Source: an uncultured Actinomycetes bacterium
Lineage (GTDB): Bacteria > Actinomycetota > Acidimicrobiia > IMCC26256 > JACDBD01
Reading direction: 5' to 3'
Length of the DNA stretch: 64,000 nucleotides
NCBI GenBank assembly: GCA_963737605.1
Contig: CAVTTE010000012.1
Span: forward strand, 201,744-265,743
This document shows positions 46,786-63,401 of the stretch, piece after piece (the stretch's first letter is position 1; each line of letters begins with the position of its first letter). Under the pieces are notes generated by a model. The model ran no database searches. It was not told the DNA's origin and worked only from the letters and a program-made list of their open reading frames with translations. The translations under genes and the position numbers were made by a program.

Positions 46786-46841
46786 CTTGGGGGGTGCCCA
46801 CCTCAGCCGGCAGGGCCGTCCCCGTCCCGGAGGTTTCACCC

Positions 46842-47429: not shown

Positions 47430-47478
47430 CCGCACGGCGCGCTTGCGCGCCCATCTGCCTCGCGAGACCCTGATCCCA

Positions 47479-48895: not shown

Positions 48896-48908
48896 GTCGA
48901 CGCCGCGG

Positions 48909-49295
48909 CTAAGGCGCCGGGCGGCGAACGCCCGGCACTTCGTCGATGGCGTCGCACCACTCGGTGAAGCCGGGGTCGAGCCACTCGTCGTGCTCGCACT
49001 CGGTGACGAGATCCTCGACGTAGACGTGCAGCGTCGGCGCTTCCTCGGCCAGCTCGACGAGGTCGGCGGCGCGTGGGTGGAACGGCCCGCTCTCGAGCAC
49101 GTCGAGGACCGCGACGACGGCCAGGACCCGGCTGCGGCACGTCGGGCACGCCGACACCGTCGCCGCCTCGAGCCCGTCGGTCAGACCGAACAGCAGCACC
49201 GCCTCGGCGGCGTCGAGCAGCACCCGGTTGCCGTCGTCGTCGACGAAGGCCAGGGAGCCCTCGGGGGGGTGGTCGGGGTCGGGCGAGGGCGGCAT
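48909..49295 (-). CDS. Hypothetical protein with CxxC...CxH...C pattern
   Basis: Tail of ORF 48909..49547 from ATG 49295 (SACPTCRSRVLAVVAVLDVLESG ... LVTECEHDEWLDPGFTEWCDAI). No family recognised. Confidence 0.4.
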   Translation of the reverse strand: MPPSPDPDHPPEGSLAFVDDDGNRVLLDAAEAVLLFGLTDGLEAATVSACPTCRSRVLAVVAVLDVLESGPFHPRAADLVELAEEAPTLHVYVEDLVTECEHDEWLDPGFTEWCDAIDEVPGVRRPAP

Positions 49296-49396
49296 GCACC
49301 GGGAAGGTAGCGCCCTCCGGCGCCCGGCCCCTCCTGGCGTCCCGTTTGCCCAGGTCAGAGGCGCCGGCGGGCCGCGGTGGCCTAGGGTTCCGGGCC

Positions 49397-50364
49397 GTGC
49401 GGGCGGTGACCGTGGTCGAGGGCCGGCTGGAGTGGCGGGAGCATCCCGATCCGGAGCCGGGCGCGGGCGAGCTGCTGATCGAGGTGCGCGCCGCCGGCCT
49501 GAACAGCGCCGACATGGCGCAACGGCGCGGCTTGTACCCGGCGCCACCCGGGAGCCCGCCGGACATCCCGGGCATGGAGCTCGCGGGTGAGGTCGTGGCG
49601 CTCGGCCGCGACGTCCAGCGGTTCTCGGTCGGCGATCGCGTCATGGCGCTCGTCGGCGGCGGCGGGCAAGCCGAGCTGGCGCTGGCGCACGAGCGCGTCA
49701 CGCTGCCCGTGACGGACACGCTGACGTGGCCCGAGGCGGGTGGGTTCCCCGAGGTGTTCACCACGGCGCACGACGCGCTCTTCAGCCAGTGTGCGCTGCG
49801 CATGGGCGAGCACGCCCTCGTGCACGCGCGCGGCCGGCGGCGTCGGCATCGCCGGTGTCCAGCTCGCGGCGCTGGCCGGCGCACGCGTCGACCGCGACAG
49901 TGCGCAATCCGGACTTGCGCGACGATGTCGCCGCGATCGGGACGCGCGCCGGCCGGACCGAGGTCGTCGCACCGGATGCGTTCGTCGACCGCGGCCCCTT
50001 CGACGTCGTGCTCGAGCTCATCGGCGCGCCGAACATCGCGTCGGACCTCGACGCGCTCGCCGTCGGTGGGCGCATCGTCGTGATCGGCCTCGGCGGCGGC
50101 GCCAACGCCGAGCTCAACTTGCTGACGCTGATGGGCGAAGCGCGGCCGCATCCACGCCTCGGGGCTGCGCGCCTCGCCCGCTCGAGGAGAAGGCCCGCTG
50201 CCGTGCAGCTCGTCGAAGCGCACGTGCTCCCGTTCCTCCGCGACGACGAGCACGTCGCTCCAGGTCCCGGTGGCGGCCACGTACCCGATGGCGAGGCCGA
50301 GGCCGCCTACGACCGGTTCGTGGCCGGCGGCAAGCTCGGCAAGATCGTGCTGACGAGCGACTAG
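49397..50364 (+). CDS. NADPH:quinone oxidoreductase / zinc-type MDR alcohol dehydrogenase family (at least 4 frameshifts)
   Basis: ORFs 49073..50083 (LIEVRAAGLNSADMAQRRGLYPAPPGSPPDIPGMELAGEV), 49740..50423 (AAGGVGIAGVQLA) and 49726..50364 (VVLELIGAPN, GGRIVVIGLGGG, end YDRFVAGGKLGKIVLTSD*). Confidence 0.75.
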
Positions 50365-50428
50365 TCCGCGTGCTCGGCGCGTGCCGGGCGATCGTCGTCG
50401 ACTACCCGCTGCGGGACGACTGACGCCG

Positions 50429-50932
50429 CTACGCGCTCCCGTCGAGGAGGCGCGGCACGACGATCCACGCGAGCACGCCCGTGCCGGGTCCCACCTCGTC
50501 CCAACCATCGACGTCGAAGTCGATGCGGGCCATCGCCGCCGTGGGGAGACCGACCTCCCCACCGCCGATGAACGCCGACACGGCCTCCGACCAGGTGGGC
50601 TCGTGGCCGACGGCCAGCAGCACGTCGGTGGTTGCGGGCTCCTTCCGGACCTCGGCCAGCAAGCCCGACAACCCGCCGTCGTACAGCGTGGCGGCGGTGC
50701 GCACGGGACAGCTCCAGCCGCCGCCTTCCATCGCCAGCCGGAGCGTGTCTTCCGCCCGCACTGCCGGCGACGTGATCGCGGCGTCGGGAGCCTGACCGGC
50801 GCGCGCGAGGAACTTCCCCATCCGCTTCGCCGCCTTCCGCCCGCGGTGAGCCAGCGGTCGGGCGGCGTCACCACCCGGGTAGTCGGCGTCCCAATCGGAC
50901 TTGCCGTGCCGGAAGAGAATGAGCCCGGGCAT
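50429..50932 (-). CDS. sixA: SixA-type phosphohistidine phosphatase
   Basis: ORF 50429..50965 from Met12 (LILFRHGKSDW ... RPLAHRGRKAA ... LLAVGHEPTWS). Confidence 0.75.
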   Translation of the reverse strand: MPGLILFRHGKSDWDADYPGGDAARPLAHRGRKAAKRMGKFLARAGQAPDAAITSPAVRAEDTLRLAMEGGGWSCPVRTAATLYDGGLSGLLAEVRKEPATTDVLLAVGHEPTWSEAVSAFIGGGEVGLPTAAMARIDFDVDGWDEVGPGTGVLAWIVVPRLLDGSA

Positions 50933-50985
50933 CACGCGTCCACCACCGCGAGCTTCGCACGGCACGCCTGGCCGCGGCGGAGCGG

Positions 50986-51005
50986 ATCCGGCAAGCTTGC
51001 CGGAT
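50986..51005. promoter_or_regulatory. Perfect 20-bp palindrome ATCCGGCAAGCTTGCCGGAT overlapping the ATG of the nucleosidase gene
   Basis: Read directly from the sequence. Its last two bases are the A and T of ATG 51004. It lies in the 71-bp divergent spacer between sixA and the nucleosidase operon. Confidence 0.5.
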
Positions 51006-51731
51006 GGACACTCCCGAGAAGTCCGGACCCATCGCGTTCATCTGCGCCATGCCGATGGAGCTGTCGCCCCTCGTCAAGAAGCTGTCGCTGACCAAGACGG
51101 ACATCGACGGCGTCGAAGTCCACCGAGGGACGCTCGACGGGCGTGAGGTCGTCGCCATCGTCACCGGGATGGGAACCAAGCTGGCGACGGAGGCCACCGA
51201 GCGTCTCCTCGACGCGACGCCCGTCGACCGGGTCGTGGTCGTCGGCATCACCGGCGCGGTGGAGAACGAGACGCCGATCGGCACGCTCATCCTCCCCGAG
51301 GTCGTCGTGAACAGCGACACCGGGACCGAGTACCGCCCGGAGCCACTGGGCGAGGGCACGCCGCACGGGAAGATGTGGACGGGCGACGTGCTCCTCACCG
51401 ACCCCGACGTGATCGCCGACCTCAGAGCGAAGGGCGTGGTGTCGCTCGACATGGAGACCGCCGCCATCGCCGAGAGCTGCGAGCGCCGCGGCATCCCCTG
51501 GTCGGTGTTCCGGGTGATCAGCGACCGTGCGACCGACGGCAGCGTCGACGAAGAGGTGTTCCGGCTCAGCAACCAGGACGGGACGACCGAACGCCACGGC
51601 CGTCGCCGCGCTACTTCGCCAAGCACCCCGGCCGCATCCCGAAGATGGCCAAGCTGGCCAAGGGCGCCAAGCTCGCCACCAAGACCGCGGCCGACGCCGC
51701 GATCAGAGCCGCCGCAAGGACGGAGCAATGA
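51004..51731 (+). CDS. PNP_UDP_1 family nucleosidase (MTA/SAH-nucleosidase / HpnG / futalosine-hydrolase-like) (1-2 frameshifts near ~51590)
   Basis: Head of ORF 51004..52728 (FICAMPMELSPL, VTGMGTKLAT, GITGAV, SLDMETAAIA, FRVISDRA), then ORF 51375..51731 (RYFAKHPGRIPKMAKLAKGAKLATKTAADAAIRAAARTEQ*). Confidence 0.75.
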
Positions 51732-52673
51732 CCACGTTCGGCCTCCAGCTCCCGAACTTCACGTTCTCGGGGGTGCCCGACGACGAGATGTTCGAGCACG
51801 TCGCCGGGCTCGCCGAAGCGGGCGAGGAGGCGGGGTTCGAATCGCTCTGGGTCATGGACCACTTCTGGCAGCTGCCGCCCCTCGGCGGCCCGACCCAGCC
51901 GATGCTCGAGGGCTACACGCTGCTCGGCGGGCTGGCCGCGCGCACGAGCCGGGCGAAGCTCGGCACGCTCGTGACGGGCGTGACGTACCGCAACCCGGCG
52001 CTCCTGGCGAAGATGGTCACGACGCTGGACATCGTCTCGGGCGGGCGGGCGATCCTCGGCATCGGCGCGGCGTGGTACGAGGAGGAGCACGACGGCCTCG
52101 GATTCGAGTTCCCGACCGCGGGCGAGCGCCTCGACCGTCTCGAGGAGGCGCTGCAGATCTGCCGGGCGATGTTCACGGAGGAAGCTCCGAGCTTCGCCGG
52201 CACGCACTACCGGATCGAGAAGGCGCTGAACGTGCCCCGCCCGATCCAGGAGAACGGTCCGAGGATCATGGTCGGCGGCAGCGGCGAGAAGCGCACCTTG
52301 CGCCTCGTCGCCCAGTACGCCGACATGTGCAACGTCAACGGCGGTCCCGACACCGTGCGTCATCTGCTCGGCGTGCTCGACCGGCACTGCGCCGACGTCG
52401 GCCGCGACCCGGGCGAGATCACGAGGACCCGTCTCGCGTCGTTGTTCCTGACGTCCTCGCCCGAGGAGACGGAGCGGACCTCGGGGTTCCTGCGCGACGC
52501 GGCCGGAGCGGAGTTCGAGGAGCGCTTCAACGTCGGCGAGCCGGCAGCGATCGTCGATCAGGTCGGCGCGCTCGTCGACGCCGGGCTCGACGAGCTGATC
52601 TTCAACATGCCGTTCGCGGACCCGGCAGACGGTGCGACGCGCCGGCGAGCTGCTCGTCTCCCGATTCGGGTAG
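51728..52673 (+). CDS. LLM-class F420-dependent oxidoreductase (one frameshift near ~52625)
   Basis: ORF 51527..52882 from ATG 51728 (TFGLQLPNF, GFESLWVMDHFWQ, ILGIGAAWYEEEH), with a last frame ending QTVRRAGELLVSRFG*. The ATG overlaps the nucleosidase stop (ATGA). Confidence 0.85.
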
Positions 52674-52737
52674 CCGGGGAGCCGGGCCTCGCTGGCGGAG
52701 GTCCGGGCTCCGTGGACTGCGGCAGTAGTTTCTGCAG

Positions 52738-53568
52738 GTGGCCACTCTCGCCGAGCGCCTCGGCTATGCACCCGACGCCAAGCTGCTCGTCGTCAACTGC
52801 GACGACCTCGGCTCGACGCGTTCGGCCAACGTCGCCGTGTACGACGCGCTGCGCAACGGCGTCGCGACCAGCGCCTCGCTGATGGTGCCGTGCCCCTGGG
52901 CCCGTGACGCCGCGGCGCAGTACCGGGGCGAGGACGTCGGCGTGCACCTCACCCTGAACTCCGAGTGGGAGACGTACCGCTGGGGACCGATCACGCAGTC
53001 GTCGAGCCTGCTCGACGGCGACGGGGGCTTCCCCCGCACGGTCGAGGACACGTGGGACCACGCCGATCTCGACGAGGTCCGCCGGGAATGCCGGGCGCAG
53101 ATCGAGCGGGCGATCATGTGGGGCTTCGACGTGAGCCACCTCGACAGCCACATGGGGACGCTCCAGCAGCGCGCCGACTTCTTCGACGTGTACCTCGAGC
53201 TGGCGGTCGACTTCCGGCTCCCGCTCCGCATGGCGGGCGCCAGCGCCGAGCGCGTCGTCGGGTTCCCGTTCCGACGACTCGCAGACGAAGAAGGCGTCGT
53301 GTTCCCCGATCACTTCGTGCTGTGCCCGGTCGGCGCGCGGCGACGGATCGAGCGGGTCCTCTTCGACCTGCGGCCGGGCGTCACCGAGGTGTACCTGCAC
53401 CCGGGCATCGACACGGACGAGCTGCGCGCCGCGTACGGCGACTGGGCGGGACGGGTCGAGGACCACGCCTACCTGTGCGAGGACCCGTCGCTGCGCGACC
53501 TCGTAGATCGGGCGGGAGTGCAGCTCATCGGCTACCGGCAGCTGCGCGAGCTCCAGCGCGCCGCGTGA
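52738..53568 (+). CDS. ChbG/HpnK (YdjC-like) family carbohydrate deacetylase
   Basis: Intact ORF 52738..53568 (LLVVNCDDLGSTRSANVA, GVHLTLNSEW, SHLDSHMG, EVYLHPG). Confidence 0.8.
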   Translation: MATLAERLGYAPDAKLLVVNCDDLGSTRSANVAVYDALRNGVATSASLMVPCPWARDAAAQYRGEDVGVHLTLNSEWETYRWGPITQSSSLLDGDGGFPRTVEDTWDHADLDEVRRECRAQIERAIMWGFDVSHLDSHMGTLQQRADFFDVYLELAVDFRLPLRMAGASAERVVGFPFRRLADEEGVVFPDHFVLCPVGARRRIERVLFDLRPGVTEVYLHPGIDTDELRAAYGDWAGRVEDHAYLCEDPSLRDLVDRAGVQLIGYRQLRELQRAA

Positions 53569-54369
53569 CGCTTGCGCCGGACGGGCTCGCCCGGCTCGTC
53601 TCGGCGGCGCTGCCGGACGAAGGGTTGACGGCCGCCGATCTCGAGACGTGCTGCTACGGGCCCGACACGGAGATTCTCGGGGACGCCGACGCCGCCGCCG
53701 TCCTCAGCGTGAAGGGATCCGGCGGCCTGGCGGCGGCGTGGCTCGTGCTCCTCGTCGTGCATCCCGACCGCCGCCGCCGGGGCCGGGGCCGGGCCCTCGT
53801 CGTCGAGAGCGCGGCGCGGGCGCGCGCCGCCGGTGCCGATCGACATGCACCTCGGCACCGCGATCCCGCGCTACGTCTGGCCCGGCGTCGACTTCCGCTT
53901 CACGGCGGCCCTCGCCCTGTTCGAGGCCACCGGCTTCGAGCCGTACGGCGCCGCGTGCAACATGGCGATCCCGACGAGCTTCCGGGCCGACTCCCCCGCC
54001 GGCGTCGTCGTCGAGCGCGAACACGGTGAGGGCGCGGCGGCGCTCGCGTCCCGGTGTTTCCCGCACTGGCTCGACGAGGTCGAACGCGCCGTTGCCGCCG
54101 GCACCTGCTACGCGGCGCGCGCCGGAGGCCACACCATCGGCTTCGCGTGCCACTCGGTGAACAGGACCGGCTGGATCGGCCCGATGGCCACCGATCCCGA
54201 GCGCCAGCGCGGCGGCGTCGGCCGGGCGCTGCTCGGCGCGGTCTGCGCTTCGCTCGCGGCCGCGGGCCACGCCGAGGCCGACATCGCCTGGGTCGGCCCC
54301 ATCGGCTTCTACGCCAAGGCGGGCGCGGTGGTCAGCCGCGTGTTCCGCAACGCCAAGCTGACGCTCTGA
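53565..54369 (+). CDS. GNAT family N-acetyltransferase (one frameshift near ~53830)
   Basis: Tail of ORF 52965..54029 (VVHPDRRRRGRGRALV) and ORF 53833..54369 (GPMATDPERQRGGVGRALLGAV, FYAKAGA). The GTG start overlaps the ChbG stop (GTGA). Confidence 0.7.
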
Positions 54370-54385
54370 TCGTTACGGGCGCGGC

Positions 54386-54772
54386 TCAGTACTCGGTGAT
54401 CTCCCGGACCTGCTCCTGGAGCTCCTTGTACTCGGGCGAGTTCGTGAGCGGCATGAGCTGCATGAGCTTGCCCATGTTGCCGGTCACCTTCATGCGTCCC
54501 TGCATGAACGCGGCGTTGGCGTCGAGCTCGCCCTTCTGGACCTTCACGGAGTCGTCGTAGGTGAGCGTGAGCGTGAAGTCGGCGTCGGAGATCTCCCCGA
54601 TCTTCGACTCGAGCAGCTTCCCGTTCTCGAGCACCCAGTAGTACTTGATGTCGCCGTCGGGGCCGCCGGTCACCACGTACTGCATCCGGGCGCTGGCGCC
54701 CGGGCGGTCAGGCTGGCCCTCGGCGAGCTTCGTGCCTTCGTCGAGCCACTCCTGGGAGAGGTACTTGGGCAT
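54386..54772 (-). CDS. SCP2 sterol-carrier domain protein
   Basis: Intact ORF 54386..54772 (FTLTLTYDDSVKVQKGELDANAAFMQGRMKVTGNMGKLMQL). Confidence 0.8.
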   Translation of the reverse strand: MPKYLSQEWLDEGTKLAEGQPDRPGASARMQYVVTGGPDGDIKYYWVLENGKLLESKIGEISDADFTLTLTYDDSVKVQKGELDANAAFMQGRMKVTGNMGKLMQLMPLTNSPEYKELQEQVREITEY

Positions 54773-54805
54773 CGCGCGGTCCTCCCTTGCTCCTGGTGCC
54801 GCGGA

Positions 54806-55630
54806 TCATAGAACCGAGTCAGGACCGGTGCTGACGGGCGTCTGACTGGCTGCCGGCCCCGACCGTCTCGCCGTCGCCGGCCGAGCCGCGCGCAGAGCGC
54901 GCGTGCGATTGGTCGCGGTCGGCATGTGACTCGCGGCGCGACCGCCGAACACGTCGACCGACGCGTCATCGGGAGGGATGCCGAACGCGGCGTCGACCGT
55001 CGCCGTGTACCAGCGCCGGATGGGCTTGGGTGTCGGCTCGTCACCCCGACCGACTGCGGCCCACCACAGGCGCTTGATGCCCCTGTCGCAGCGGACGAGC
55101 GACCACGCCCCCGCTCGAGCGATCGCCGCGCCCAGCGCACTCAGCGCGGCGCCCACGCGGGCAGCCCCCCGTGCGACCACCCGCCCCGTTACCGACCAGA
55201 GCCGATGCATCCCGGCGCGGTACAGCACGAGGGCCCGGAGACCGCCACTGACCAGCACCGTCCACAGCGACGTCAGGCCTGCGCCCACGTGAGCGAGCGT
55301 CCACACGAACGCGTGCCCGACCGCAGACCACACCCAGTGCATCGCGGCGCGGTACACGACCAGCGCCCGCAGGCCGCCACGCACCAGCACCATCCACAGC
55401 GACGTCAACCACACGCCCACGTGAGCGAGCGTCCACACGGACGCGTGCCCTACCGCAGACCACAACCAGTGCATCGCGGCGCGGTACCGGACGAGCGCCG
55501 CGTCCGTGGCGCGCGCCGTCCACGACGAGAACCACGCCACGCTCGCTGCCGAACGCGCCACGAGCCATCCCAGCGCGGCACCCACTCTCGACCACACCCA
55601 GGTCATGCCGGCGCCGTAGTACGCAAGCAT
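54806..55630 (-). CDS. Trp-rich protein composed of ~nine 22-residue repeats (unrecognised family); possibly fused to the upstream 2-TM ORF
   Basis: ORF 54806..55873 from ATG 55630 (MLAYYGAGMTWVWSRV...). It has 22-aa periodicity and two near-identical 44-aa units. GC3 is high in this frame, and the opposite-strand ORF is Arg/Pro/His-rich text. Confidence 0.6.
   Translation of the reverse strand: MLAYYGAGMTWVWSRVGAALGWLVARSAASVAWFSSWTARATDAALVRYRAAMHWLWSAVGHASVWTLAHVGVWLTSLWMVLVRGGLRALVVYRAAMHWVWSAVGHAFVWTLAHVGAGLTSLWTVLVSGGLRALVLYRAGMHRLWSVTGRVVARGAARVGAALSALGAAIARAGAWSLVRCDRGIKRLWWAAVGRGDEPTPKPIRRWYTATVDAAFGIPPDDASVDVFGGRAASHMPTATNRTRALRAARPATARRSGPAASQTPVSTGPDSVL
55073..55620. repeat. 132-bp tandem repeat array inside the coding sequence (two well-conserved central copies, decayed flanking copies)
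   Basis: Copies 55205-55336 and 55337-55468 match at 113 of 132 positions by hand alignment. Copy 55469-55600 keeps the unit ends (gtgcatcgcggcgcggtac...gaccacacccag). The outer units are recognisable only at the protein level. Confidence 0.8.
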
Positions 55631-55911
55631 CCAACCGAGCGCGCGACCGACTCGTCGTCGCGCCGCGCCCGATGACTCCGCGCATGTACTCGCTTCGGAA
55701 CCGGTGGAACCGTCTCGACCCACTTGTCGAAGTCGAACACCACCAGCACGAACAGCGTCAGCGACGCCATCGCGAACGCGAAGAACAACGCCCCCTGACC
55801 GGCACCGAAACTTGCGACGCCGTCTTCGGAGAGAAGACGAGCGAGCACGGCGGACGCGACGATGACCGCGCACGCCGTGACTTTGACGATCAGCTGTGTT
55901 CGGCGTTTCAC
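55603..55911 (-). CDS. Small two-transmembrane-segment protein (or N-terminal module of the Trp-repeat protein)
   Basis: ORF 55603..55986 from GTG 55911 (VKRRTQLIVKVTACAVIVASAVLARLL...GALFFAFAMASLTLFVLVVFDFDKW). It overlaps the next ORF by 28 nt in a different frame. Confidence 0.5.
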   Translation of the reverse strand: MKRRTQLIVKVTACAVIVASAVLARLLSEDGVASFGAGQGALFFAFAMASLTLFVLVVFDFDKWVETVPPVPKRVHARSHRARRDDESVARSVGCLRTTAPA

Positions 55912-56065
55912 GCTGCTTCGAGACCTATCACTATCCGTGTTGCTGGCGCGCGGCGTAAGGGTATGCGGTGCGCACTCCGGCGTCACGAGCGCCGCGTCAG
56001 GCGCCGCGCGGCGCCCCGGTCCGAAGCAGCTGGAGCTGGTGATCGACCTCGTACTTGGCGACGAG

Positions 56066-56350
56066 CTACTCCTGGCGCTTCAGGGTGAGCTGCGCGCCCT
56101 CGGTCGTCGGCTCGGTGTCCAGGACGGCGTCGGCGAGCGGCGCCGCGACCTCCGGGGCGACGAAATACCGGGTCTGCTCCACCTCGCCGACCTCGTCGCC
56201 GTCCTCGGGCTCCTCGACGAAATCGAACGCAAACGCCGCCTTGCCGTCGGAGACGCCGCGGAAGATGCGCAGACCGAAGTGATCGGGGACCCCGATCTGC
56301 GATCGGGTGTCGGCCAGTGTGGTTGCTGCACTCTCGGTGACCTGGAGCAT
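56066..56350 (-). CDS. HesB/IscA-like domain protein (no C-terminal Cys motif)
   Basis: ORF 56066..56464 from ATG 56350, preceded by GGAGGAGGAGG (MLQVTESAATTLADTRSQIGVPDHFGLRIFRG...FAFDFVEEPEDGDEV). Confidence 0.55.
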   Translation of the reverse strand: MLQVTESAATTLADTRSQIGVPDHFGLRIFRGVSDGKAAFAFDFVEEPEDGDEVGEVEQTRYFVAPEVAAPLADAVLDTEPTTEGAQLTLKRQE

Positions 56351-56435
56351 GGGCGCCTCCTCCTCCGAAGCGGGATCTGCACCCGCATGGGCGCAAACCG
56401 CGTCTCTACCCCGAGGAGCTCGCGACCATGCCGGC

Positions 56436-57371
56436 CTACCGGGCCAGGCGTTCCGTCCCCACACCCGTCCGGATCCCGGCGAAGAGATCGGTCTCGGGCT
56501 CGGCGGATTGGCCGGCGGGCACGCCGCCCTCGACGAGGGAGCGAGCCAGCACGTACTCCTCCCACGGGAACGTGCCCCGCACGACCTCGTCGGGCAGCTT
56601 CATCCAGAAGCCGTCCGGGTCGACCTGCGTGCGGTGGGCGAGGAGCGCGGCCCGGCGCCGGTCGAGGTACTCGCCGACGTCGACGTGCGTCGTGAACCGG
56701 TCGCCGTCGTCCGGGAAGCCGGCCTCGAACCAGCGCTCGAACGGGCTCTCGTGACCGTGCGCGAGGTAGGCCTCGTGCAACGCCAGCACGCGGCGCTTCG
56801 ACCAGCCCATGTAGTACATCTTCGACGGCTGCCACGGCTCGCCCGACTCGGGGAAGCGATCGGGGTCGCCGGCGGCGTCGAACGCCGGCCCCGAGATCTC
56901 GTGCACCCGGATGTGGTCGGGGTGCGGGTAGAACTCGCGGTCGTCGGCGTACGTCACGATGACCTGCGGCCGCTCGTCACGGATGATCGCGACGAGCCGT
57001 CCGACCGCCTCGTCGAGCGGCGCGTTGGCGAAATTGTCGGGCCGCGCGTTCGTCTCGGTGTCGGGCATGCCGGAGTCGTGGTACCCGAGGAGGTGCAGCG
57101 ACGAGTACCCGATGGCCTCGACGCTGGCGCGCAGCTCGGCCATGCGCACCTCGGCCAGGTTGTCCCGCACGTCGGGTGTGTCGGCGGCGGGGTTGAGGAT
57201 GTCGCCGGCCTCGCCACCGGTGCAGCACACGAGCACGCAGCGGATGCCCTCGGCGGTGTACTTGGCGACCGTGCCCGCGCCCTTCGACGCCTCGTCGTCG
57301 GGATGCGCGTGCACGGCGAGCAGGCACAGCGGGTTGCCGGCGTGGTCGCGGGGGGAGCAGCCATGCGGCAA
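56436..57371 (-). CDS. mca: Mycothiol S-conjugate amidase (LmbE/PIG-L deacetylase family); start uncertain
   Basis: Lower part of ORF 56436..58391 (LLAVHAHPDDEASKGAGTVAKY, TGGEAGDILNP, YPHPDHIRVHE, GEPWQPSKMYY, ETDLFAGI). This closely follows the Mca pattern. An ATG at ~57364 would be in frame if the G-run 57350-57355 were one base longer. Confidence 0.85.
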   Translation of the reverse strand: MPHGCSPRDHAGNPLCLLAVHAHPDDEASKGAGTVAKYTAEGIRCVLVCCTGGEAGDILNPAADTPDVRDNLAEVRMAELRASVEAIGYSSLHLLGYHDSGMPDTETNARPDNFANAPLDEAVGRLVAIIRDERPQVIVTYADDREFYPHPDHIRVHEISGPAFDAAGDPDRFPESGEPWQPSKMYYMGWSKRRVLALHEAYLAHGHESPFERWFEAGFPDDGDRFTTHVDVGEYLDRRRAALLAHRTQVDPDGFWMKLPDEVVRGTFPWEEYVLARSLVEGGVPAGQSAEPETDLFAGIRTGVGTERLAR

Positions 57372-57405
57372 CGAAGGTATCGCACCGCACCCCGGCCGCT
57401 GACCG

Positions 57406-58503
57406 CTACGACTCCGGTTCCGGCACGTGTTGCTCGGCGCGCTCGAGCGCCCAGATCTCGACCCGCCCGATGTCGCGGACTGCGGCGGCTGCGGAGCCGG
57501 TGCCAGACGAACGCAGGGTCGTCGCCCAGCGCGTCGCGGAACTCGCTCGACGCGAGCACGCTCCCGGGCCGGGCCCGCTCGACCAGCCGGCTCGCGAGGT
57601 TGACGACCGGGCCGTAGTAGTCGCCTTCCTGGGCGAGCACGGATCCGTAGGCGAGCCCGGCGCGCGCCTCGGGCAGCAGCTCGTCGACCGCCGACCGCTC
57701 GGTGAGGCGCAGCGCGATCCGGGCTGCGCTCGGCGGCGTCGGCGGCGACGAACATGACCTCGTCGCCGATCGTCTTGACGACCCGACCCCCGTGCTCGGC
57801 CACGGTGTCGTAGGCGAGCTCCTCGAACCGGCTCACGAGCGCGGCGAGCTCCTCGGGCTCGAGCTCCTGGCTCAGCGCGGTGTAGCCGACGAGGTCGACG
57901 AACCCGACCGCGAGCTCGGCGGCGCCGGTCGCCTGCGGGTCGCTCGCGGTGAGCTTGCGGCGCGACCGCGGCCCGGAGCTGGAGACGCAACCCGTAGTCG
58001 ATGAGATCGCGAGAGGCGAGGCCAGTCGAGCGCGTCGGTGACCTCGACGGCGATCGTCGTCCTCGGACACGCCCGGCTTCCGCGCCGGTCCTGCACCGCC
58101 TTCGACGAGCAGAGTCGCTCTCGACCTCGGCGATGCGGGCCAGCGCGCCGCCGAAGACGCGCACGATCTGCACGAGCTGCTCGTAGTCCTCCCCGAGACC
58201 GGCACGATCGTCGACTCGATCTGCTGACGCAGCGTGATGACGCGCCTCGACGTCCTCGTCGCGGAACAGCCGCGCGTCGGGCGGCGGGTCGGGGAACCCG
58301 AGGGCGCGCCAGAGCCGTCTGCGCCGTCTCGACGTCGAAGCTCGGCTCGGCGGCACGCCTCTGCGAACGTGTACCGCGGCCGGCCGGGCATCAGCTGGCT
58401 GGTCGAATGCGAGGAGCAGCAGCCTGCCCTCGCGCTCGGCTCGGGCGATCTCGTCGGGCGTCGCGCCCCGGCGGCGGAGGAACGAGCGCAGCTTGCGGTT
58501 CAT
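57406..58503 (-). CDS. Class III adenylate/guanylate cyclase with an N-terminal regulatory region (at least 7 frameshifts as assembled)
   Basis: Pieces of ORFs 57406..58503 (MNRKLRSFLRRRGATPDEIARAEREGRLLLLAFDQ; LWRALGFPDPPPDARLF), 56436..58391 (AVGFVDLVGYTALSQELEPEELAALVSRFEELAYDTVAEHGGRVVKTIGDEVMFVA) and 56954..57640 (LAQEGDYYGPVVNLASRLVERARPGSVLAS). Confidence 0.7.
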   Translation of the reverse strand: MNRKLRSFLRRRGATPDEIARAEREGRLLLLAFDQPADARPAAVHVRRGVPPSRASTSRRRRRLWRALGFPDPPPDARLFRDEDVEARHHAASADRVDDRAGLGEDYEQLVQIVRVFGGALARIAEVESDSARRRRCRTGAEAGRVRGRRSPSRSPTRSTGLASRDLIDYGLRLQLRAAVAPQAHRERPAGDRRRRARGRVRRPRRLHRAEPGARARGARRAREPVRGARLRHRGRARGSGRQDDRRRGHVRRRRRRRAQPGSRCASPSGRRSTSCCPRRAPGSPTDPCSPRKATTTARSSTSRAGWSSGPGPGACSRRASSATRWATTLRSSGTGSAAAAVRDIGRVEIWALERAEQHVPEPES

Positions 58504-58533
58504 CGGCCCCGCAGTGCGCCCCCTTGCTCCCGG

Positions 58534-59815
58534 CTAGGAGCGGAGGACGTCCTTCCACGCCACGTCGCGCGACACGTCGGGATCCTTGGGCAGGCCGAGG
58601 ACGCGCTCGCCGAGGATGTTGCGCATGATGTCGGACGTCCCGCCTTCGATCGTGTTGGCCTGGGCGCGCAGGAAGCCGCGCGCCAGCGTTCCACGGTCGT
58701 TGCCGTCGGCGAGCCAGGTGGGACGGCCGCGCTGGCCGCGCTCGCGCGTGCTCGCCCTCCCACGCCACGCCGCCGATGCCCTCGAGGTCGACGGCGAGCT
58801 TCTGGAGCCGCTGGTTGAACTCGGCCGACATGAGCTTGGTGATCGATCCTTCGGGCCCGACCTCGGCGCCGCTCTTGCGCTTCGCCGCCGCCCGCTCGTT
58901 GTTGAGCCGGATGAGCCGGCTCTCGATGTACGCCTGCGAGAGGCGCTGGCGGGCGAGCGGGTCGGTGACGCCATGGTGGCGTTCGAGGAGCCGCGACAAC
59001 GGGCTGCCGCCGACCGTGTCGCCGCTCACGGAGCCGGCGCCCGACAGCGAGACGCGCTCGTTCATGAGCGTCGTGATCGCGACCCGCCAGCCGTCGCCCT
59101 CCGGACCGATGCGCATCGAGTCGGGGACGCGGACGTTGTCGAAGAACACCTCGTTGAACTCGGCGTCGCCGGTGATCTGGACGAGCGGTCGCACGGTGAC
59201 CCCGGGCGCCTGCATGTCGACGATGAAGTACGTCAGCCCCTTGTGCTTCGGCACCGCGGGGTCCGTGCGGGCGAGCAGCATTCCCCATTTCGCGAGGTGG
59301 GCGAGGCTCGTCCAGACCTTCTGGCCGTTGACGACCCACTCGTCACCGTCGCGAACCGCACGCGTCGACAAGCCGGCGACGTCGGAGCCGGCGCCGGGCT
59401 CGCTGAACATCTGGCACCAGATCTCCTGGTTGGTCGCCAGCGGCCGCAGCAGACGCCGCCTCTGCTCCTCGTTGCCCCACGTGATGACGGTGGGGCCGCC
59501 CATCCCGATGCCGATGATGTTGAAGGGCCGCGGCACCCGGTAGTGGTTGAGCACCTCGTTGACGACCTTGGCCTGGCCGGGCGTGAGCGACAGCCCGGCG
59601 CCGTACTCGTTGGGCCACGTCGGCGTCGCGTACCCGGCCTCGCCGAAGCGGACGCACCACTCCGCGTAGTCGAGGTCGCGCCGCAGCGCCGAGACCTTCT
59701 CGTCGTCGCCGGCGTCGACCGCTTCCATCCAGCCCGGCGGCAGGTTGTCGCGCAGCCAGTCGAGCGTCTGCTCGCGCAGCTGCTCGGCGGTGATCTCGGG
59801 CGCTTCGACGGCCAT
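58534..59815 (-). CDS. Acyl-CoA dehydrogenase (one frameshift near ~58750)
   Basis: ORF 58391..59815 (CQMFSEPGAGSDVAGLSTRAVRDGDEWVVNGQKVWTS) continues in ORF 58534..58974 (RAQANTIEGGTSDIMRNILGERVLGLP). Confidence 0.85.
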
Positions 59816-59834
59816 GGCGGCATGGTACCGACCT

Positions 59835-59852
59835 CTTGACCGAACGGTCAGG
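59835..59852. promoter_or_regulatory. Operator-like palindrome CTTGACCG-AA-CGGTCAGG (member 3 of 3)
   Basis: The core TGACCG-AA-CGGTCA is perfect. It lies 20 nt upstream of the minus-strand ACAD start (59815) and 90 nt upstream of corA. Confidence 0.45.
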
Positions 59853-59941
59853 TTCCCGGCGCCGGCGGCTTTGCCGACCGGCGCCGCAGGAGCTGAGCCT
59901 GCGAAGGCGACCGATGATCAGACCGCCTCTACGCTGGCCCG

Positions 59942-60939
59942 GTGATTCGGGCCTGGGTGTACCGCGACGGGGTCGAAGGACACGAGGATGTCCCGAGTCG
60001 ACCGGCTCGCCGAGGCCATCGAGCCGAAGGAAGCCCTGCTGTGGGTCGACTGCGTGGACGCGACCCCGACGGAGCTCGACTCGCTCACGACACAGCTCCA
60101 GATCAGCCACATCGCCGCCGAGGACCTGCACAAGGGTGGGCAGCGCACCAAGCTCGAGCACTACCGCGAGCACTTCCACGTCGCGGTGCACGACTGCTAC
60201 CTCGTCGAGGACCGGCTGGTCACGAGGGAGATCGACATCGTGTTCGGCGACGGATGGGTGCTGTCGGTGCGCCAAGCCCAGCGACGAACCCGACCGACCC
60301 GGCGCCGTTCGAGCTCGACGCCGTGATTCGCCGCTTCGAGGTGGAGCGCAGCGAACGAGGCCGCCTGAACGACGAGGGCTTCCTGTCTGGGTCGTTCCTC
60401 GACGTCGATCGTCGACCGCTACTTCGACGTCGCCGACCGCTTCGACGACCGCCTCGACGAGGTCGAGGAGATCGTGTTCTCGGCGCAAACAGGAGACGAC
60501 ATCCCGAGGGAGGTCTTCGACCTGCGCCGCGGCATGGTGCATTTCCGCCGTGCGGTGGCGCCGCTGCGCGAGGTGCTGGCGGCACTGCTGAGGAAAGAGG
60601 CCGACCAGCATCGGCGGCGAGGCCGTCGTGCACATGCAGGACGTCTACGACCACGTCCTCCGGGTCACCGACTGGATCGAGACCCAGCGCGACCTGCTGA
60701 CCGGGTTGCTCGAAGCGGACCTCGCCGTCGTCTCGAACCGCATGAACCAGGTCATGAAGCGCATGACCTCCTGGGGAGCGATCCTCCTCGGGTCGACGCT
60801 CATCGCCGGGATCTACGGCATGAACTTCAAGGACATCCCCGAGCTCAACTGGACGTTCGGCTACCCGTTCGCGCTGGGCACGATGCTGGCGCTGACGATC
60901 TTCCTGTACACGTGGTTCAAGCGGCGGAACTGGCTGTGA
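59942..60939 (+). CDS. corA: CorA family magnesium/cobalt transporter (about 5 frameshifts as assembled)
   Basis: ORFs 59942..60700 (GTG start), 59988..60326, 59836..60591, 60474..61070 and 60628..60939 (WGAILLGSTLIAGIYGMNFKDIPEL; GMN motif; two C-terminal TMS). Confidence 0.85.
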
Positions 60940-63350: not shown

Positions 63351-63401
63351 GGGGGCGAAGGTAGCCGAGGGGTCATTCGCGCACGGGTTGCGACGCGGCG
63401 G

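What the first reader, a model, noticed from the sequence alone, without database searches (positions are those of the whole stretch)
54806..55911. Trp-rich protein of ~nine 22-residue helical repeats, built on a 132-bp DNA tandem repeat, behind a 2-TM module
From ATG 55630, the minus-strand ORF 54806..55873 shows clear 22-aa periodicity. The repeats read GRALGWMLAYYGAGMTWVWSRV / GAALGWLVARSAASVAWFSSWT / ARATDAALVRYRAAMHWLWSAV / GHASVWTLAHVGVWLTSLWMVL / VRGGLRALVVYRAAMHWVWSAV / GHAFVWTLAHVGAGLTSLWTVL, and so on. They are Gly-punctuated, carry 1-3 Trp each, and have almost no acidic residues.

Two central 44-aa double units are nearly identical because the DNA carries 132-bp tandem copies. Copies 55205-55336 and 55337-55468 match at 113 of 132 positions by hand alignment, and decayed copies flank them on both sides.

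Third codon positions are strongly G/C in this frame, and the opposite-strand ORF 54926..55675 is Arg/Pro/His junk, so the frame is credible. ORF 55603..55986 overlaps by 28 nt in another frame and encodes two hydrophobic helices. Given the indel load of this assembly, the two ORFs may be one protein.

I do not recognise the repeat as any named family. Tandem 22-mer amphipathic helices punctuated by helix breakers are the architecture of exchangeable apolipoproteins. A membrane- or lipid-surface-coating role is therefore a hypothesis; a WS/DGAT gene lies about 6 kb away.
Basis: partly seen in the sequence, partly recalled or inferred. Interest (0 to 1): 0.7.

Follow-up and report, generated by a model that had tools for sequence, protein, structure and literature searches.

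The report
Membrane-tethered Trp-rich hendecad-repeat protein
A real but uncharacterised gene of uncultured soil Acidimicrobiia, split here by assembly indels, encodes a membrane-anchored protein with a long, positively charged, tryptophan-rich helix built from 11/22/44-residue repeats whose number varies between relatives; its function is untested and is most likely a membrane-surface scaffold or tether.

Summary
Two 132-bp copies match at 113/132 positions, decayed copies flank them, and the frame is coding (GC3 0.83-0.97; dN/dS 0.3-0.6).

The two ORFs are one 362-aa gene, 54819..55911 on the minus strand. Three insertions break it relative to an intact homolog that is 92.6% identical. The whole window is indel-laden, as are related Nanopore MAGs.

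The protein has four parts:
- a basic N-terminus followed by a two-helix membrane hairpin;
- a conserved DFDxW..PPVPKR junction;
- about 210 residues of acid-free repeats (net charge about +20, 9% Trp) with an a-d-e-h hendecad pattern; hydrophobic periodicity peaks at 98 degrees in 38 of 40 relatives;
- a conserved motif RRWYTATVDAAFGIPP..DVFGG, then a disordered tail.

Two AlphaFold2 models give very long helices. Pfam, NCBIfam, PDB, Foldseek, PHROGs and PADLOC find nothing.

The family is confined to soil Acidimicrobiia MAGs. The spacer length changes in steps of 11, 22, 44 or 4 residues. A short-form homologous family shares the anchor and a GLPPDD motif.

The best reading is a cytoplasmic, membrane-interface helix of tunable length that presents a C-terminal motif. 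This function is inferred, not shown.

A recurrent convergent WS/DGAT neighbour keeps a neutral-lipid role open.

The parts
54819..55911 (-). Whole gene once three insertions are removed. It encodes 362 aa, starts at GTG 55911 and stops at TGA 54819-54821.
   Evidence: The frame-corrected translation is 362 aa, the same length as intact homologs P0001-P0006. DNA is 92.6% identical to the intact L005 gene, and the only internal gaps are three insertions in the window.
55831..55893 (-). Transmembrane helix 1 (LIVKVTACAVIVASAVLARLL), preceded by the basic N-terminus VKRRTQ.
   Evidence: 19-residue Kyte-Doolittle mean is about 2.1. AlphaFold2 helix 2-28. Sequence checked.
55735..55800 (-). Transmembrane helix 2 (GQGALFFAFAMASLTLFVLVVF). 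The loop before it (SEDGVASFGA) is acidic, so it is inferred to lie outside the cell.
   Evidence: Kyte-Doolittle mean 2.6 and Wimley-White octanol sum -12.9. F43, F46 and L53 are invariant in 40 relatives.
55690..55734 (-). Conserved juxtamembrane motif DFDKWVETVPPVPKR.
   Evidence: D60, D62, W64, P72 and K73 are invariant. Mean majority-residue frequency is 0.86, one of the two most conserved segments.
55652..55686 (-). Frame junction. Two +1 insertions (about 55685/6 and about 55652-6) bracket 55653-55685, which reads MRGVIGRGATT in a third frame.
   Evidence: Three-frame translation compared with P0002 FRGVIGRGAKRVGRA. Gaps against L005. The GC3 maximum switches frame here.
55052..55682 (-). 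Repeat region of about 210 aa, or about 19 hendecads (nine to ten 22-mers). Rich in Trp, Arg, Ala, Gly, Leu and Val and nearly free of acidic residues.
   Evidence: Row layout. Hydrophobic power peaks at periods 11.25 and 3.67, at 11.2 against 7.75 for the 99th percentile of shuffles. Hydrophobic positions 4, 7, 8 and 11 of the hendecad. AlphaFold2 helices 73-193 and 200-286 with block-mean pLDDT mostly 67-82.
55205..55468 (-). Two near-identical 132-bp (44-aa) tandem copies, the youngest duplication.
   Evidence: 113/132 nt and 36/44 aa identical. Tandem Repeats Finder score 455.
54938..55051 (-). Conserved C-terminal motif GRGDEPTPKPIRRWYTATVDAAFGIPPDDASVDVFGGR.
   Evidence: Majority-residue frequency 0.89, the highest in the protein. 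W300, G310, P312 and P313 are invariant. AlphaFold2 pLDDT is low here (block means 44-51).
54819..54937 (-). Poorly conserved, predicted-disordered tail. It contains the +2 insertion at about 54894-54897. The corrected reading is ...NRTRA|ARGSAGDGETVGAGSQSDARQHRS*.
   Evidence: pLDDT below 50. GC3 shifts to another frame at 54940-54820.
56436..57382 (-). Upstream neighbour on the same strand: mycothiol conjugate amidase Mca (PIG-L). In this window it is frameshifted and fused into ORF 56436..58391.
   Evidence: The intact ortholog in L002 scores 312.6 bits against TIGR03446, above the cut-off of 277. Synteny shown. Coordinates.
56066..56350 (-). Upstream 94-aa protein of unknown function, with only weak sub-threshold hits to HesB/IscA-type models. 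Present in most but not all relatives.
   Evidence: No match to it in L005, L003, L015 or L016.
54386..54772 (-). Downstream SCP2-domain protein of 128 aa, 46 nt after the stop. Probably co-transcribed.
   Evidence: Pfam SCP2 E=5.7e-13. Same position in all core-clade loci.
47479..48895 (+). WS/DGAT gene (also frameshifted in this window). It is convergent with the repeat gene and lies 5.9 kb from its stop.
   Evidence: tblastn with the L006 WS/DGAT gives 94-96% identity. Three-frame translation.

Best explanation
Positions 54819..55911 (-) hold one real gene of a small, uncharacterised protein family found only in uncultured soil Acidimicrobiia. In this assembly three spurious insertions break it.

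The product is anchored in the cytoplasmic membrane by an N-terminal two-helix hairpin, with both ends in the cytoplasm. The rest faces the cytoplasm. It is a helix-forming region of about 210 residues made of hendecad (11/3) repeats, with these features:
- Leu, Trp, Val and Met at positions a, d, e and h;
- Arg clustered on the opposite face;
- Gly and Ala on the flanks;
- almost no acidic residues, and a net charge of about +20.

I propose that this helix lies along, and partly within, the interface of the anionic inner-leaflet surface, with Trp acting as an interfacial anchor and Arg snorkelling to the lipid head groups. In this reading it is a membrane-surface scaffold or spacer. Its length is tuned by unequal recombination between 33-, 66- and 132-bp DNA repeats. 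It presents the conserved C-terminal motif RRWY..FGIPP..DVFGG to an unknown partner.

Shown: the gene is real and is a single gene; the membrane hairpin; the helix prediction; the 11/3 periodicity; length changes that keep helical phase; conserved ends with a fast-evolving middle.

Inferred: the in-plane membrane binding, the topology, the partner-presenting role and the biological process.
For: One real gene:
- Intact 362-aa homologs exist.
- The window differs from the L005 gene only by three insertions.
- Against L005 the adjacent cyclase/Mca region has 30 gap openings in 3 kb. Broken copies occur in the contig_NNNN-named MFD MAGs (Nanopore is my inference), whereas the SMAG and JGI loci carry intact copies.
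- dN/dS is 0.32-0.62, below 1 but 3-8 times that of neighbouring genes.

Anchor and topology:
- Two segments have Kyte-Doolittle means of 2.1-2.6.
- The N-terminus is basic (KRRT), the loop is acidic, and the post-TM2 segment is basic (sequence).

Helix and periodicity:
- Two AlphaFold2 runs give helices 73-193/200-286 and 74-193/196-283, with 10-residue block-mean pLDDT of about 51-90.
- The 98-degree peak exceeds the 99th percentile of shuffles in 38 of 40 members, and heptad power is about 0.

Spacer behaviour:
- The anchor-to-motif distance takes values 142, 186, 208, 230, 241 and 252, with variants 4 residues shorter.
- Short-form homologs (hhalign probability 95.3%, E=2e-8) have linkers of 73, 84 or 95 residues.
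- The junction and the C-motif are the most conserved parts (0.86 and 0.89), against 0.63 for the repeats.

Membrane affinity:
- The mean Wimley-White interfacial free energy is negative per residue. Net charge is +15 to +33, with 9% Trp and 13% Arg across the family.
Against: - No experiment or dedicated topology predictor supports the membrane-surface location.
- Local hydrophobic moments are modest (0.1-0.4; consensus 0.23) and Trp also sits on the Arg face (position 6). The helix is therefore hydrophobic nearly all round, not cleanly amphipathic.
- AlphaFold2 pTM is only 0.23-0.29. I could not see the predicted aligned error, so a packed helical hairpin or an oligomeric coiled coil is equally compatible with the models.
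- The partner of the C-terminal motif is unknown.
- Gene neighbours (Mca and SCP2 in one clade; a class-B PBP and WS/DGAT in the other) do not point to a single process.
Confidence: 0.45

Rival explanations
1. The repeat region is a self-associating hendecad coiled coil. It would be either an antiparallel hairpin of the two long helices or a homo-oligomeric stalk that projects 13-30 nm into the cytoplasm. In this reading it acts as a ruler or tether that holds the C-terminal motif at a set distance from the membrane.
For: - The a-d-e-h hydrophobic pattern is the canonical hendecad coiled-coil core.
- Both AlphaFold2 models break the helix at the same place, about residue 194-200, giving arms of about 120 and about 88 residues.
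- Length varies in steps of 11 and 4 residues, which matches coiled-coil hendecad and stutter arithmetic.
- The only non-family hits of the profile include a large protein (P0074) whose Trp recurs about every 11 residues. From its sequence I take it to be phage-tape-measure-like, though no annotation was available.
Against: - The solvent-facing positions are Ala, Gly, Ser, Thr, Arg and Trp with about 1% acidic residues. Mean hydrophobicity is 0.6. That is unlike soluble coiled coils and would favour aggregation or membrane binding.
- pTM of 0.23-0.29 gives no confident packing.
- Foldseek finds no helical-hairpin analogue.
Confidence: 0.25
2. The repeats would form an apolipoprotein- or perilipin-like coat for neutral-lipid (triacylglycerol or wax ester) surfaces made by WS/DGAT. 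For example, they could cover nascent lipid lenses at the cytoplasmic membrane while the hairpin stays in the bilayer.
For: - The repeats share the 11/3 periodicity of apoA-I and alpha-synuclein. The same helix type is described for perilipins, where targeting strength scales with repeat number (PMC5889406).
- A WS/DGAT gene lies convergent and 5.9 kb downstream in the window lineage.
- In the homologous short-form family a WS/DGAT gene again lies convergent downstream, at 0 kb (L022, L023), 1.7 kb (L024, L028) and 4.4 kb (L027).
- An SCP2 lipid-binding protein is encoded 46 nt downstream.
Against: - There is no sequence or fold match to apolipoprotein or perilipin families.
- The hairpin loop carries Glu/Asp, so the anchor should span a bilayer rather than sit in a monolayer over oil (inference from sequence).
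- The composition differs strongly from known coat helices.
- The convergent orientation rules out co-transcription with WS/DGAT.
- WS/DGAT is not seen within 3 kb in L025/L026, nor in the flanks of L003, L004, L017 and L018.
- SCP2 is not adjacent in the distant clade.
- WS/DGAT genes are commonly multi-copy in Actinobacteria (my knowledge), so chance proximity is not negligible.
Confidence: 0.15
3. The repeats are ordinary membrane-spanning helices of a polytopic membrane protein.
For: In the window protein, VWTLAHVGVWLTSLWMVLV has Kyte-Doolittle mean 1.65 and Wimley-White octanol sum -9.3. 27 of 40 relatives have at least one 19-residue window above 1.6 in the repeat region.
Against: - The equivalent repeat positions in relatives read AWTLxRxGEGLTxLW, with Arg and Glu in mid-segment.
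- Arg recurs every 8-14 residues (13% overall), and scores are far below those of the true N-terminal helices (2.2-2.9).
- Length changes of 11 or 22 residues would flip the topology of everything downstream.
- AlphaFold2 gives 90-120-residue continuous helices.
Confidence: 0.07
4. The region is a decaying pseudogene or a non-coding tandem repeat, and the ORFs are artefacts of high G+C.
For: Three frame-breaking insertions lie within 1.1 kb. High-GC DNA produces long spurious ORFs on both strands.
Against: - 57 homologs exist and full-length copies are intact in Illumina assemblies.
- dN/dS is below 1.
- GC3 follows the corrected frame through each shift.
- Neighbouring housekeeping genes in the window are broken in the same way.
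Confidence: 0.03
5. The protein is a membrane-tethered nucleic-acid binder. In this reading the Arg-rich helix and a relic cold-shock-domain half (RRWY..FGIPPD..DVF) bind RNA or DNA at the membrane.
For: The only PDB sequence hits of the family profile are CspA and CspB, aligned over W-[FY], FG-x-I-x-PDD-x-S-x-DVF (E=1-2.2). The protein is strongly cationic.
Against: - hhalign probability is 3%, P=0.014, over 28 columns.
- No Pfam CSD hit in any of the 40 members.
- The RNP2 aromatic and His residues are replaced by Gly-Gly.
- AlphaFold2 predicts no beta structure there.
- The repeat region is too hydrophobic for a typical nucleic-acid binder.
Confidence: 0.05

Closest known systems
Exchangeable apolipoproteins (apoA-I/A-IV/E; Pfam Apolipoprotein PF01442)
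   Same: Tandem 22-residue units, each made of two 11-mers. The hydrophobic periodicity of 3.67 residues per turn (98 degrees) is the same as I measured in apoA-I. The repeats arose by tandem DNA duplication.
   Different: - No sequence match.
- No proline punctuation.
- About 1% acidic residues against 19%; mean hydrophobicity 0.6 against 0.2; 9% Trp against 1.5%.
- Anchored by a membrane hairpin rather than secreted and soluble.
- Bacterial and cytoplasm-facing.
Perilipin 11-mer repeat region, especially the perilipin-4 giant amphipathic helix (29 x 33-mer)
   Same: A very long, highly repetitive 3-11 helix with many small residues (Gly, Ala, Thr). In Plin4, length determines binding strength (PMC5889406). 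In this family, length varies in whole repeat units.
   Different: Plin4 is weakly hydrophobic, lacks bulky aromatic residues, carries about +1 net charge per 33-mer with both charge signs, and is soluble (PMC5889406). This protein is Trp-rich, carries about +2 per 22-mer with no acidic residues, and is membrane-tethered. There is no homology.
Hendecad (11/3) coiled coils and phage tape-measure proteins with Trp/Phe every 11 residues
   Same: The a-d-e-h hydrophobic pattern. Trp recurs at fixed hendecad positions (91% Trp at 22-mer position 19). Length changes by whole repeat units. A tape-measure-like protein (P0074) is among the weak profile hits. That tape-measure proteins carry periodic aromatic residues is from my own knowledge.
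   Different: No phage context and no PHROG hit. The gene sits in a conserved chromosomal neighbourhood. The exposed positions are not polar. The protein carries a membrane anchor.
Short-form Acidimicrobiia family found here (alignment A5; 208-261 aa, all annotated 'hypothetical')
   Same: Homologous membrane hairpin and juxtamembrane segment (hhalign 95.3%, E=2e-8). A basic helical linker quantised in 11-residue steps (73, 84, 95). A [FL]G[IL]PP[DE][DE] motif near the C-terminus. A convergent WS/DGAT gene downstream.
   Different: The linker is 59-95 residues with only 1-4 Trp and no 44-mer array. The second C-terminal motif differs (EGLDAMPTLPR). The upstream neighbour is a class-B penicillin-binding protein rather than Mca.
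Cold-shock domain (CspA/CspB)
   Same: The C-terminal motif aligns with beta1-beta3 of the cold-shock domain, with 54% identity over 28 columns.
   Different: The similarity is not significant (E about 1; hhalign probability 3%). The RNP2 residues are lost, a Pro-Pro sits in the equivalent of beta2, and there is no predicted beta structure.

Membership tests
Exchangeable apolipoprotein (PF01442) | Significant match to the family profile | tested here: not met
   No Pfam hit at E<=1 for the window ORFs or at E<=10 for 40 relatives. No PDB sequence or fold match.
Exchangeable apolipoprotein (PF01442) | Tandem 22-mer/11-mer repeats with 11/3 amphipathic periodicity | tested here: met
   A 98-degree peak above the 99th percentile of shuffles in 38 of 40 members. 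The apoA-I control peaks at 98 degrees.
Exchangeable apolipoprotein (PF01442) | Proline-punctuated helices and class-A charge pattern (acidic centre, basic edges of the polar face) | tested here: not met
   No Pro in the repeat region and 0.9-1.5% acidic residues depending on the boundaries used. AlphaFold2 helices are continuous over 88-120 residues.
Exchangeable apolipoprotein (PF01442) | Soluble, reversibly lipid-binding protein without a membrane anchor | tested here: not met
   An N-terminal pair of hydrophobic helices (Kyte-Doolittle 2.1-2.6) is conserved in all full-length relatives.
Perilipin (PF03036) 11-mer repeat region | Profile match, PAT domain or 4-helix bundle | tested here: not met
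   No Pfam hit. No compact domain in the AlphaFold2 models.
Perilipin (PF03036) 11-mer repeat region | Localisation to the lipid-droplet surface | not testable with these tools
   Needs microscopy or fractionation. The only genomic lead is WS/DGAT proximity.
Hendecad coiled coil (structural class) | Hydrophobic residues at a, d, e and h of an 11-residue repeat over many repeats | tested here: met
   Positions 4, 7, 8 and 11 have mean hydrophobicity 0.93-1.75. Of the other positions, six are at or below 0.55 and position 6 (Trp or Arg) is 0.93.
Hendecad coiled coil (structural class) | Helix-helix association (dimer, tetramer or hairpin) | not testable with these tools
   Only monomer AlphaFold2 output without PAE or coordinates was available. 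pTM was 0.23-0.29.
Cold-shock domain (PF00313) | Significant profile match and five-stranded OB fold with RNP1/RNP2 motifs | tested here: not met
   PDB profile search E=1-2.2. hhalign probability 3%. No Pfam CSD hit. No beta strands predicted.
Phage tape-measure protein | Phage tail-module context or PHROG match | tested here: not met
   No PHROG hit. The gene lies in a conserved chromosomal context, ACAD - cyclase - Mca - (94-aa protein) - repeat gene - SCP2.
Polytopic membrane protein | Repeat helices predicted to span the membrane consistently across orthologs | tested here: inconclusive
   Some windows reach Kyte-Doolittle means of 1.6-2.2 in 27 of 40 members. However, equivalent repeats carry Arg and Glu mid-segment, and Arg is 13% overall. 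No dedicated predictor such as DeepTMHMM was available.
New Acidimicrobiia family defined here (alignment A1) | TM hairpin + DFDxW..PxPK[RG] + hendecad repeats + W[YF]..[FL]G[IV]PP motif | tested here: met
   The frame-corrected window protein carries all four elements and is 89% identical to P0001.

The most novel reading that the evidence does not exclude
This would be a bacterial counterpart of the giant 3-11 amphipathic helices of perilipin-4 and apolipoproteins. A membrane-hairpin-tethered, Trp/Arg-rich helix, with its length set by tandem DNA duplication, would coat or organise the cytoplasmic membrane surface where WS/DGAT deposits triacylglycerol or wax-ester lenses in soil Acidimicrobiia. 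If so, it is an independently evolved lipid-surface coat protein with a recruitment motif at its tip.
Probability: 0.15. Interest if true: 0.7.

Novelty: new variant of a known kind. Interest (0 to 1): 0.45.

Why it matters
If the proposed mechanism holds, this family would be a prokaryotic, membrane-tethered example of the 11/3 repeat helix design known from apolipoproteins, perilipins and synuclein. It would have a different chemistry: a Trp/Arg interface with no acidic residues.

Nature has already made a length series of 13 to about 25 hendecads, which is useful for studying how helix length and aromatic content set lipid-surface affinity.

It would also add a candidate structural player to membrane or neutral-lipid biology in Acidimicrobiia, an abundant soil lineage that remains poorly characterised.

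There is a practical lesson too. Gene callers split this gene in long-read assemblies. The database holds the 102-aa frameshifted fragment P0065 as a protein, so such families are under-counted.

Tried and rejected
- **Profile libraries.** Pfam, NCBIfam, PADLOC and PHROGs scans of the window ORFs and of relatives found nothing above noise. The weak WTF, DUF2981 and mechanosensitive-channel hits only reflect the hydrophobic N-terminus.\n- **Fold search.** Foldseek of both AlphaFold2 models against PDB gave no match with E<=0.001.\n- **PDB profile search.** Only CspA/CspB at E about 1. Followed up with hhalign and rejected as homology (probability 3%).\n- **Weak profile hits.** Hits in the 1.84-billion-protein library at E of 1e-16 to 1e-4 to large proteins (P0069, P0072-P0086) were inspected. 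They are unrelated Trp-containing repeats or eukaryotic repeat junk, not relatives.\n- **Lipoprotein reading.** The VTAC sequence in TM1 is not conserved; relatives have TATA.\n- **RNA and signals.** The promoter/terminator scan of 54200-57600 and the Rfam scan of the whole window found nothing.\n- **Searches that returned nothing useful.** A homolog search with the distant relative P0100 returned only itself on a 1.2-kb contig. An exact look-up of P0065, the window's own split ORF, found no contig on record.\n- **Literature.** Searches for a described Trp-rich hendecad membrane protein in Actinobacteria found none.\n- **Beta-solenoid reading.** I considered a beta-solenoid of the 22-mer (Gly-x-Gly every 11 residues, W-x-W-x-W in some relatives). 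I set it aside because period-2 power is below the shuffle mean and both AlphaFold2 models are helical.


Full report
**1. The observation**

The window is about 70% G+C. Tandem Repeats Finder reports a 132-bp array at 55206-55499, with 2.2 copies and 87% matches.

The neighbouring 132-bp blocks match them at 68-78 of 132, against a background of about 34%. Ten of the 19 differences fall at third codon positions.

In the protein, residue identity at lag 44 has z=15 against shuffles. Lag 22 gives z=4.4 and lag 66 gives z=5.1. The repeat is real, and the frame is coding.

**2. One gene, broken by assembly indels**

A homology search returned 57 proteins. The closest full-length ones are 362 aa and contain both the two-helix N-terminal module and the repeats in a single chain.

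Three-frame translation of the junction shows the following:
- ...VPPVPKRV in the ORF-B frame;
- MRGVIGRGATT in the third frame (compare P0002, FRGVIGRGAK);
- VGRALGWML... in the ORF-A frame.

A global alignment of the window gene to the intact gene in L005, a JGI contig, gives 92.6% identity. The only internal gaps are three insertions in the window: +1 near 55685, +1 near 55656 and +2 near 54897.

Removing them yields a 362-aa protein from GTG 55911 to TGA 54819-54821. Its C-terminal 24 residues (ARGSAGDGETVGAGSQSDARQHRS) now match the relatives.

The window as a whole is indel-laden:
- 30 gap openings in 3 kb against L005 over the adenylate-cyclase and Mca genes;
- a fused chimeric ORF at 56436..58391;
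- a frameshifted WS/DGAT gene.

The homologous genes in other long-read MAGs (MFD isolates, contig_NNNN names) are broken at different places. All Illumina-type MAG and JGI copies are intact. I therefore treat the frameshifts as assembly errors.

The database even holds the 102-aa frameshifted fragment of this window as a protein, P0065.

**3. Anatomy of the protein**

Residue numbers refer to the corrected product.
- **1-6:** basic N-terminus, VKRRTQ.
- **7-27 and 38-59:** two hydrophobic helices, with Kyte-Doolittle means of 2.1 and 2.6. They are joined by an acidic loop, SEDGVASFGA.
- **60-74:** DFDKWVETVPPVPKR, with D60, D62, W64, P72 and K73 invariant in 40 relatives.
- **About 77-286:** the repeat region.
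- **287-324:** GRGDEPTPKPIRRWYTATVDAAFGIPPDDASVDVFGGR, the best-conserved stretch of the protein. Its majority-residue frequency is 0.89, against 0.63 for the repeats and 0.49 for the tail.
- **325-362:** a poorly conserved tail.

By the positive-inside rule, both termini, and therefore the repeats, face the cytoplasm. This is an inference; no topology predictor was available.

**4. The repeat region**

Written in rows of 22, the sequence aligns as 11-mers.

Across the 33 relatives whose spacer length keeps the 11-residue register, the hendecad consensus is as follows:
- hydrophobic residues at positions 4, 7, 8 and 11, which is the a-d-e-h pattern;
- Arg at positions 2, 6 and 10, adjacent on an 11/3 helical wheel and opposite the hydrophobic face;
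- Gly or Ala at positions 1, 3, 5 and 9;
- one Trp per 22-mer conserved at 91%.

The hydrophobicity spectrum of the window protein peaks at periods 11.25 and 3.67 residues. The power is 11.2, against 7.75 for the 99th percentile of shuffles.

In 38 of 40 family members the strongest helical-range peak lies at 96-100 degrees and exceeds the 99th percentile of shuffles. Power at the heptad angle is about zero.

They differ in composition: mean hydrophobicity of about 0.2 against 0.6 here, 9-19% acidic residues against about 1%, and 0-1.5% Trp against 9%.

Across the family the region carries a net charge of +15 to +33, with 9% Trp and 13% Arg. Its mean Wimley-White interfacial free energy per residue is negative.

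Local 18-residue hydrophobic moments are modest, at 0.1-0.4, and the consensus value is 0.23. This is a hydrophobic, cationic helix rather than a textbook amphipathic one.

**5. Structure prediction**

I ran AlphaFold2 twice with 40-sequence alignments, using P0001 (89% identical to the window) and P0030 as targets. Both runs gave the same picture:
- helices 2-28 and 34/37-67/68, the membrane hairpin;
- one helix of about 120 residues (73/74-193);
- one helix of about 88 residues (196/200-283/286);
- a short low-confidence helix over RRWYTATVDAA;
- a disordered tail.

In the repeats, 10-residue block-mean pLDDT runs from about 51 to 90, but pTM is only 0.23-0.29. The glycines do not break the helices in the models, and the repeats contain no proline.

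Foldseek against PDB found nothing significant for either model.

**6. Distribution and evolution**

A profile search of 1.84 billion representative proteins found only 14 clusters at E<=1e-30. The weaker hits to large proteins were unrelated Trp-containing repeats.

Among 185,579 species-representative genomes, 15 loci were found. All are in soil MAGs labelled Acidimicrobiia, Actinomycetota or "uncultured Actinomycetes".

The distance from the PxPK anchor to the W[YF]..FGIPP motif takes the values 142, 186, 208, 230, 241 and 252. Variants 4 residues shorter also occur. These are steps of 11, 22 or 44 residues, or one helical turn.

Some relatives have independent young duplications. P0018 and P0008 are examples, and a 472-aa protein in L015 carries four near-identical 44-mers.

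Pairwise dN/dS is 0.32-0.62. The flanking Mca, SCP2, GNAT and YdjC genes in the same genomes give 0.04-0.29. Protein identity is 39-70% where the neighbours are 72-98%. The gene is constrained but evolves fast, mainly in the repeats.

**7. A wider superfamily**

Weak profile hits of 213-261 aa (P0087, P0089, P0091, P0100) share the architecture. A search seeded with P0091 gave 19 Acidimicrobiia proteins, which I aligned as A5.

Profile-profile comparison of A1 with A5 gives 95.3% probability and E=2e-8 over the membrane hairpin and juxtamembrane segment.

A5 proteins also have a basic helical linker. Its length is 73, 84 or 95 residues in all but two members (77 and 59), which is again 11-residue steps. 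Net charge is +12 to +19 and the spectral peak is at 96-98 degrees, although it is not individually significant. A ...LGLPPDDE... motif follows.

The conserved parts of the superfamily are therefore the anchor and the C-terminal Pro-Pro motif. The helix between them is a spacer of variable length. In the window's clade it became Trp-rich and expanded through the 132-bp repeat.

**8. Genomic context**

In the core clade the gene order is acyl-CoA dehydrogenase, adenylate cyclase, PIG-L, (94-aa protein), the repeat gene, then SCP2. GNAT, YdjC and a luciferase-like gene follow on the opposite strand, and further on lie thiolase..., and WS/DGAT.

The PIG-L protein is Mca, scoring 312.6 bits against TIGR03446, above the cut-off of 277.

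In the more distant L003, L015 and L016 loci only Mca stays adjacent. In L004, L017 and L018 the context is different.

Unrelated genes have been inserted on either side of the gene in some genomes.

In the short-form family the upstream neighbour is a class-B penicillin-binding protein. A WS/DGAT gene lies downstream and convergent:
- at 0 kb in L022 and L023, where the stop codons overlap;
- at 1.7 kb in L024 and L028;
- at 4.4 kb in L027;
- not within 3 kb in L025 and L026.

In the window, WS/DGAT (47479..48895, + strand) is likewise convergent, 5.9 kb from the stop of the repeat gene. The two groups of WS/DGAT are only 27-44% identical.

This recurrence is a genuine lead toward neutral-lipid biology. 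It is not decisive, for three reasons: the orientation excludes co-transcription, the linkage may simply be inherited, and WS/DGAT genes are often multi-copy in Actinobacteria (my knowledge).

**9. Interpretation**

*Shown:*
- a single real gene;
- a membrane hairpin;
- a long helix-forming hendecad region that is cationic, acid-free and Trp-rich;
- length changes that preserve helical phase;
- conserved ends with a fast-evolving middle;
- restriction to a narrow soil lineage;
- no relationship to any described family.

*Inferred, and my preferred mechanism at about 0.45:* the helix lies at the cytoplasmic membrane interface, with Trp at the interface and Arg binding anionic head groups. It acts as a length-tunable scaffold or spacer that presents the C-terminal motif to a partner.

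*Main rival, about 0.25:* a self-associating hendecad coiled coil or hairpin acting as a stalk. The outputs available to me cannot separate these two readings.

It is weakened by the bilayer-spanning anchor with an acidic outer loop, by the very different composition, and by the absence of homology.

*Disfavoured:* the polytopic-membrane, pseudogene and nucleic-acid-binding readings. The reasons are given under the rival explanations.

**10. Comparison and novelty**

The protein works most like the 3-11 repeat helices of apolipoproteins, perilipins and alpha-synuclein. For those proteins, folding on lipid and length-dependent binding are documented (PMC5889406). Alternatively, it works like a hendecad coiled coil.

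It is a member of none of these families. The profile matches fail, as do the Pro-punctuation, class-A charge-pattern and solubility criteria.

I rate it a new variant of a known kind: a bacterial, membrane-tethered, Trp/Arg-type hendecad repeat protein.

Interest is moderate. It is an unannotated, structurally distinctive family with a natural length series and a suggestive lipid link. However, it is lineage-restricted and has no functional data.

Noticed in passing
window 56436..58391, 47479..48895 and, more generally, 46800..63400: The window is full of frame-breaking indels. The adenylate cyclase and Mca genes are fused into one chimeric 651-aa ORF, WS/DGAT changes frame near 48060, and there are 30 gap openings in 3 kb against the intact JGI contig L005. 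Related MFD (Nanopore-style) MAG contigs show the same kind of damage at other positions.
   Followed up: partly
window 54938..55051 (residues 287-324 of the corrected protein): The conserved C-terminal motif IRRWYTATVDAAFGIPPDDASVDVFGG resembles the first half of a cold-shock domain (VKWFNAEKGFGFIxPDDGSxDVFVH). CspA and CspB were the only PDB hits of the family profile (E 1-2.2). hhalign gives only 3% probability, so this is probably chance.
   Followed up: yes
window 56066..56350 (-): A 94-aa Cys-free protein with only weak sub-threshold hits to Fe-S cluster assembly models (NfuA, SufA, ErpA; E 0.01-0.2). It lies between Mca and the repeat gene, and tblastn finds no match to it in L005, L003, L015 or L016.
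   Followed up: partly
L008:2405-4001, L014, L010 (between the 94-aa gene and the repeat gene); L015:4701-6180 (between the repeat gene and SCP2): The intergenic spaces flanking the repeat gene have gained unrelated DNA in some genomes. From motifs in the ORF translations (not profile searches), L008 appears to carry a metallo-beta-lactamase-fold gene and L015 an endonuclease-V-like gene on the opposite strand. The flanks look like insertion hot spots.
   Followed up: partly
L015:3283-4701: This relative is 472 aa and has four nearly identical 44-residue units (GEGLTWLWVSAVQVGAWVLVRYRAGAHWLWLSTGRGFVWVLARV). That is an independent recent expansion, so repeat number changes repeatedly within the family.
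   Followed up: partly
Proteins P0018-P0042 (C-termini): One clade ends in a conserved acidic tail...DDDA[AV]L-COOH. The window's clade ends ...SQSDARQHRS. A distant clade (P0052-P0057) instead carries an extra C-terminal motif, ARYVGRQVTRRG..SEELL..AL.R[FL]RS. The function of all three is unknown.
   Followed up: no
P0065 (database protein) = window 55603..55911 (-): The protein database contains a 102-aa entry identical to this window's N-terminal ORF, including its frameshifted tail (...KRVHARSHRARRDDESVARSVGCLRTTAPA). The split gene call has therefore propagated into public protein sets.
   Followed up: partly
L022:6001-8042, L023, L024, L027, L028: In the short-form homologous family, the gene and a WS/DGAT gene are convergent. 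In L022 and L023 their ends overlap by 4 nt. In other genomes one to four genes sit between them (a HAD-AAA fusion, P450 plus ferredoxin, an Exo_endo_phos protein). A class-B PBP lies upstream in most.
   Followed up: partly
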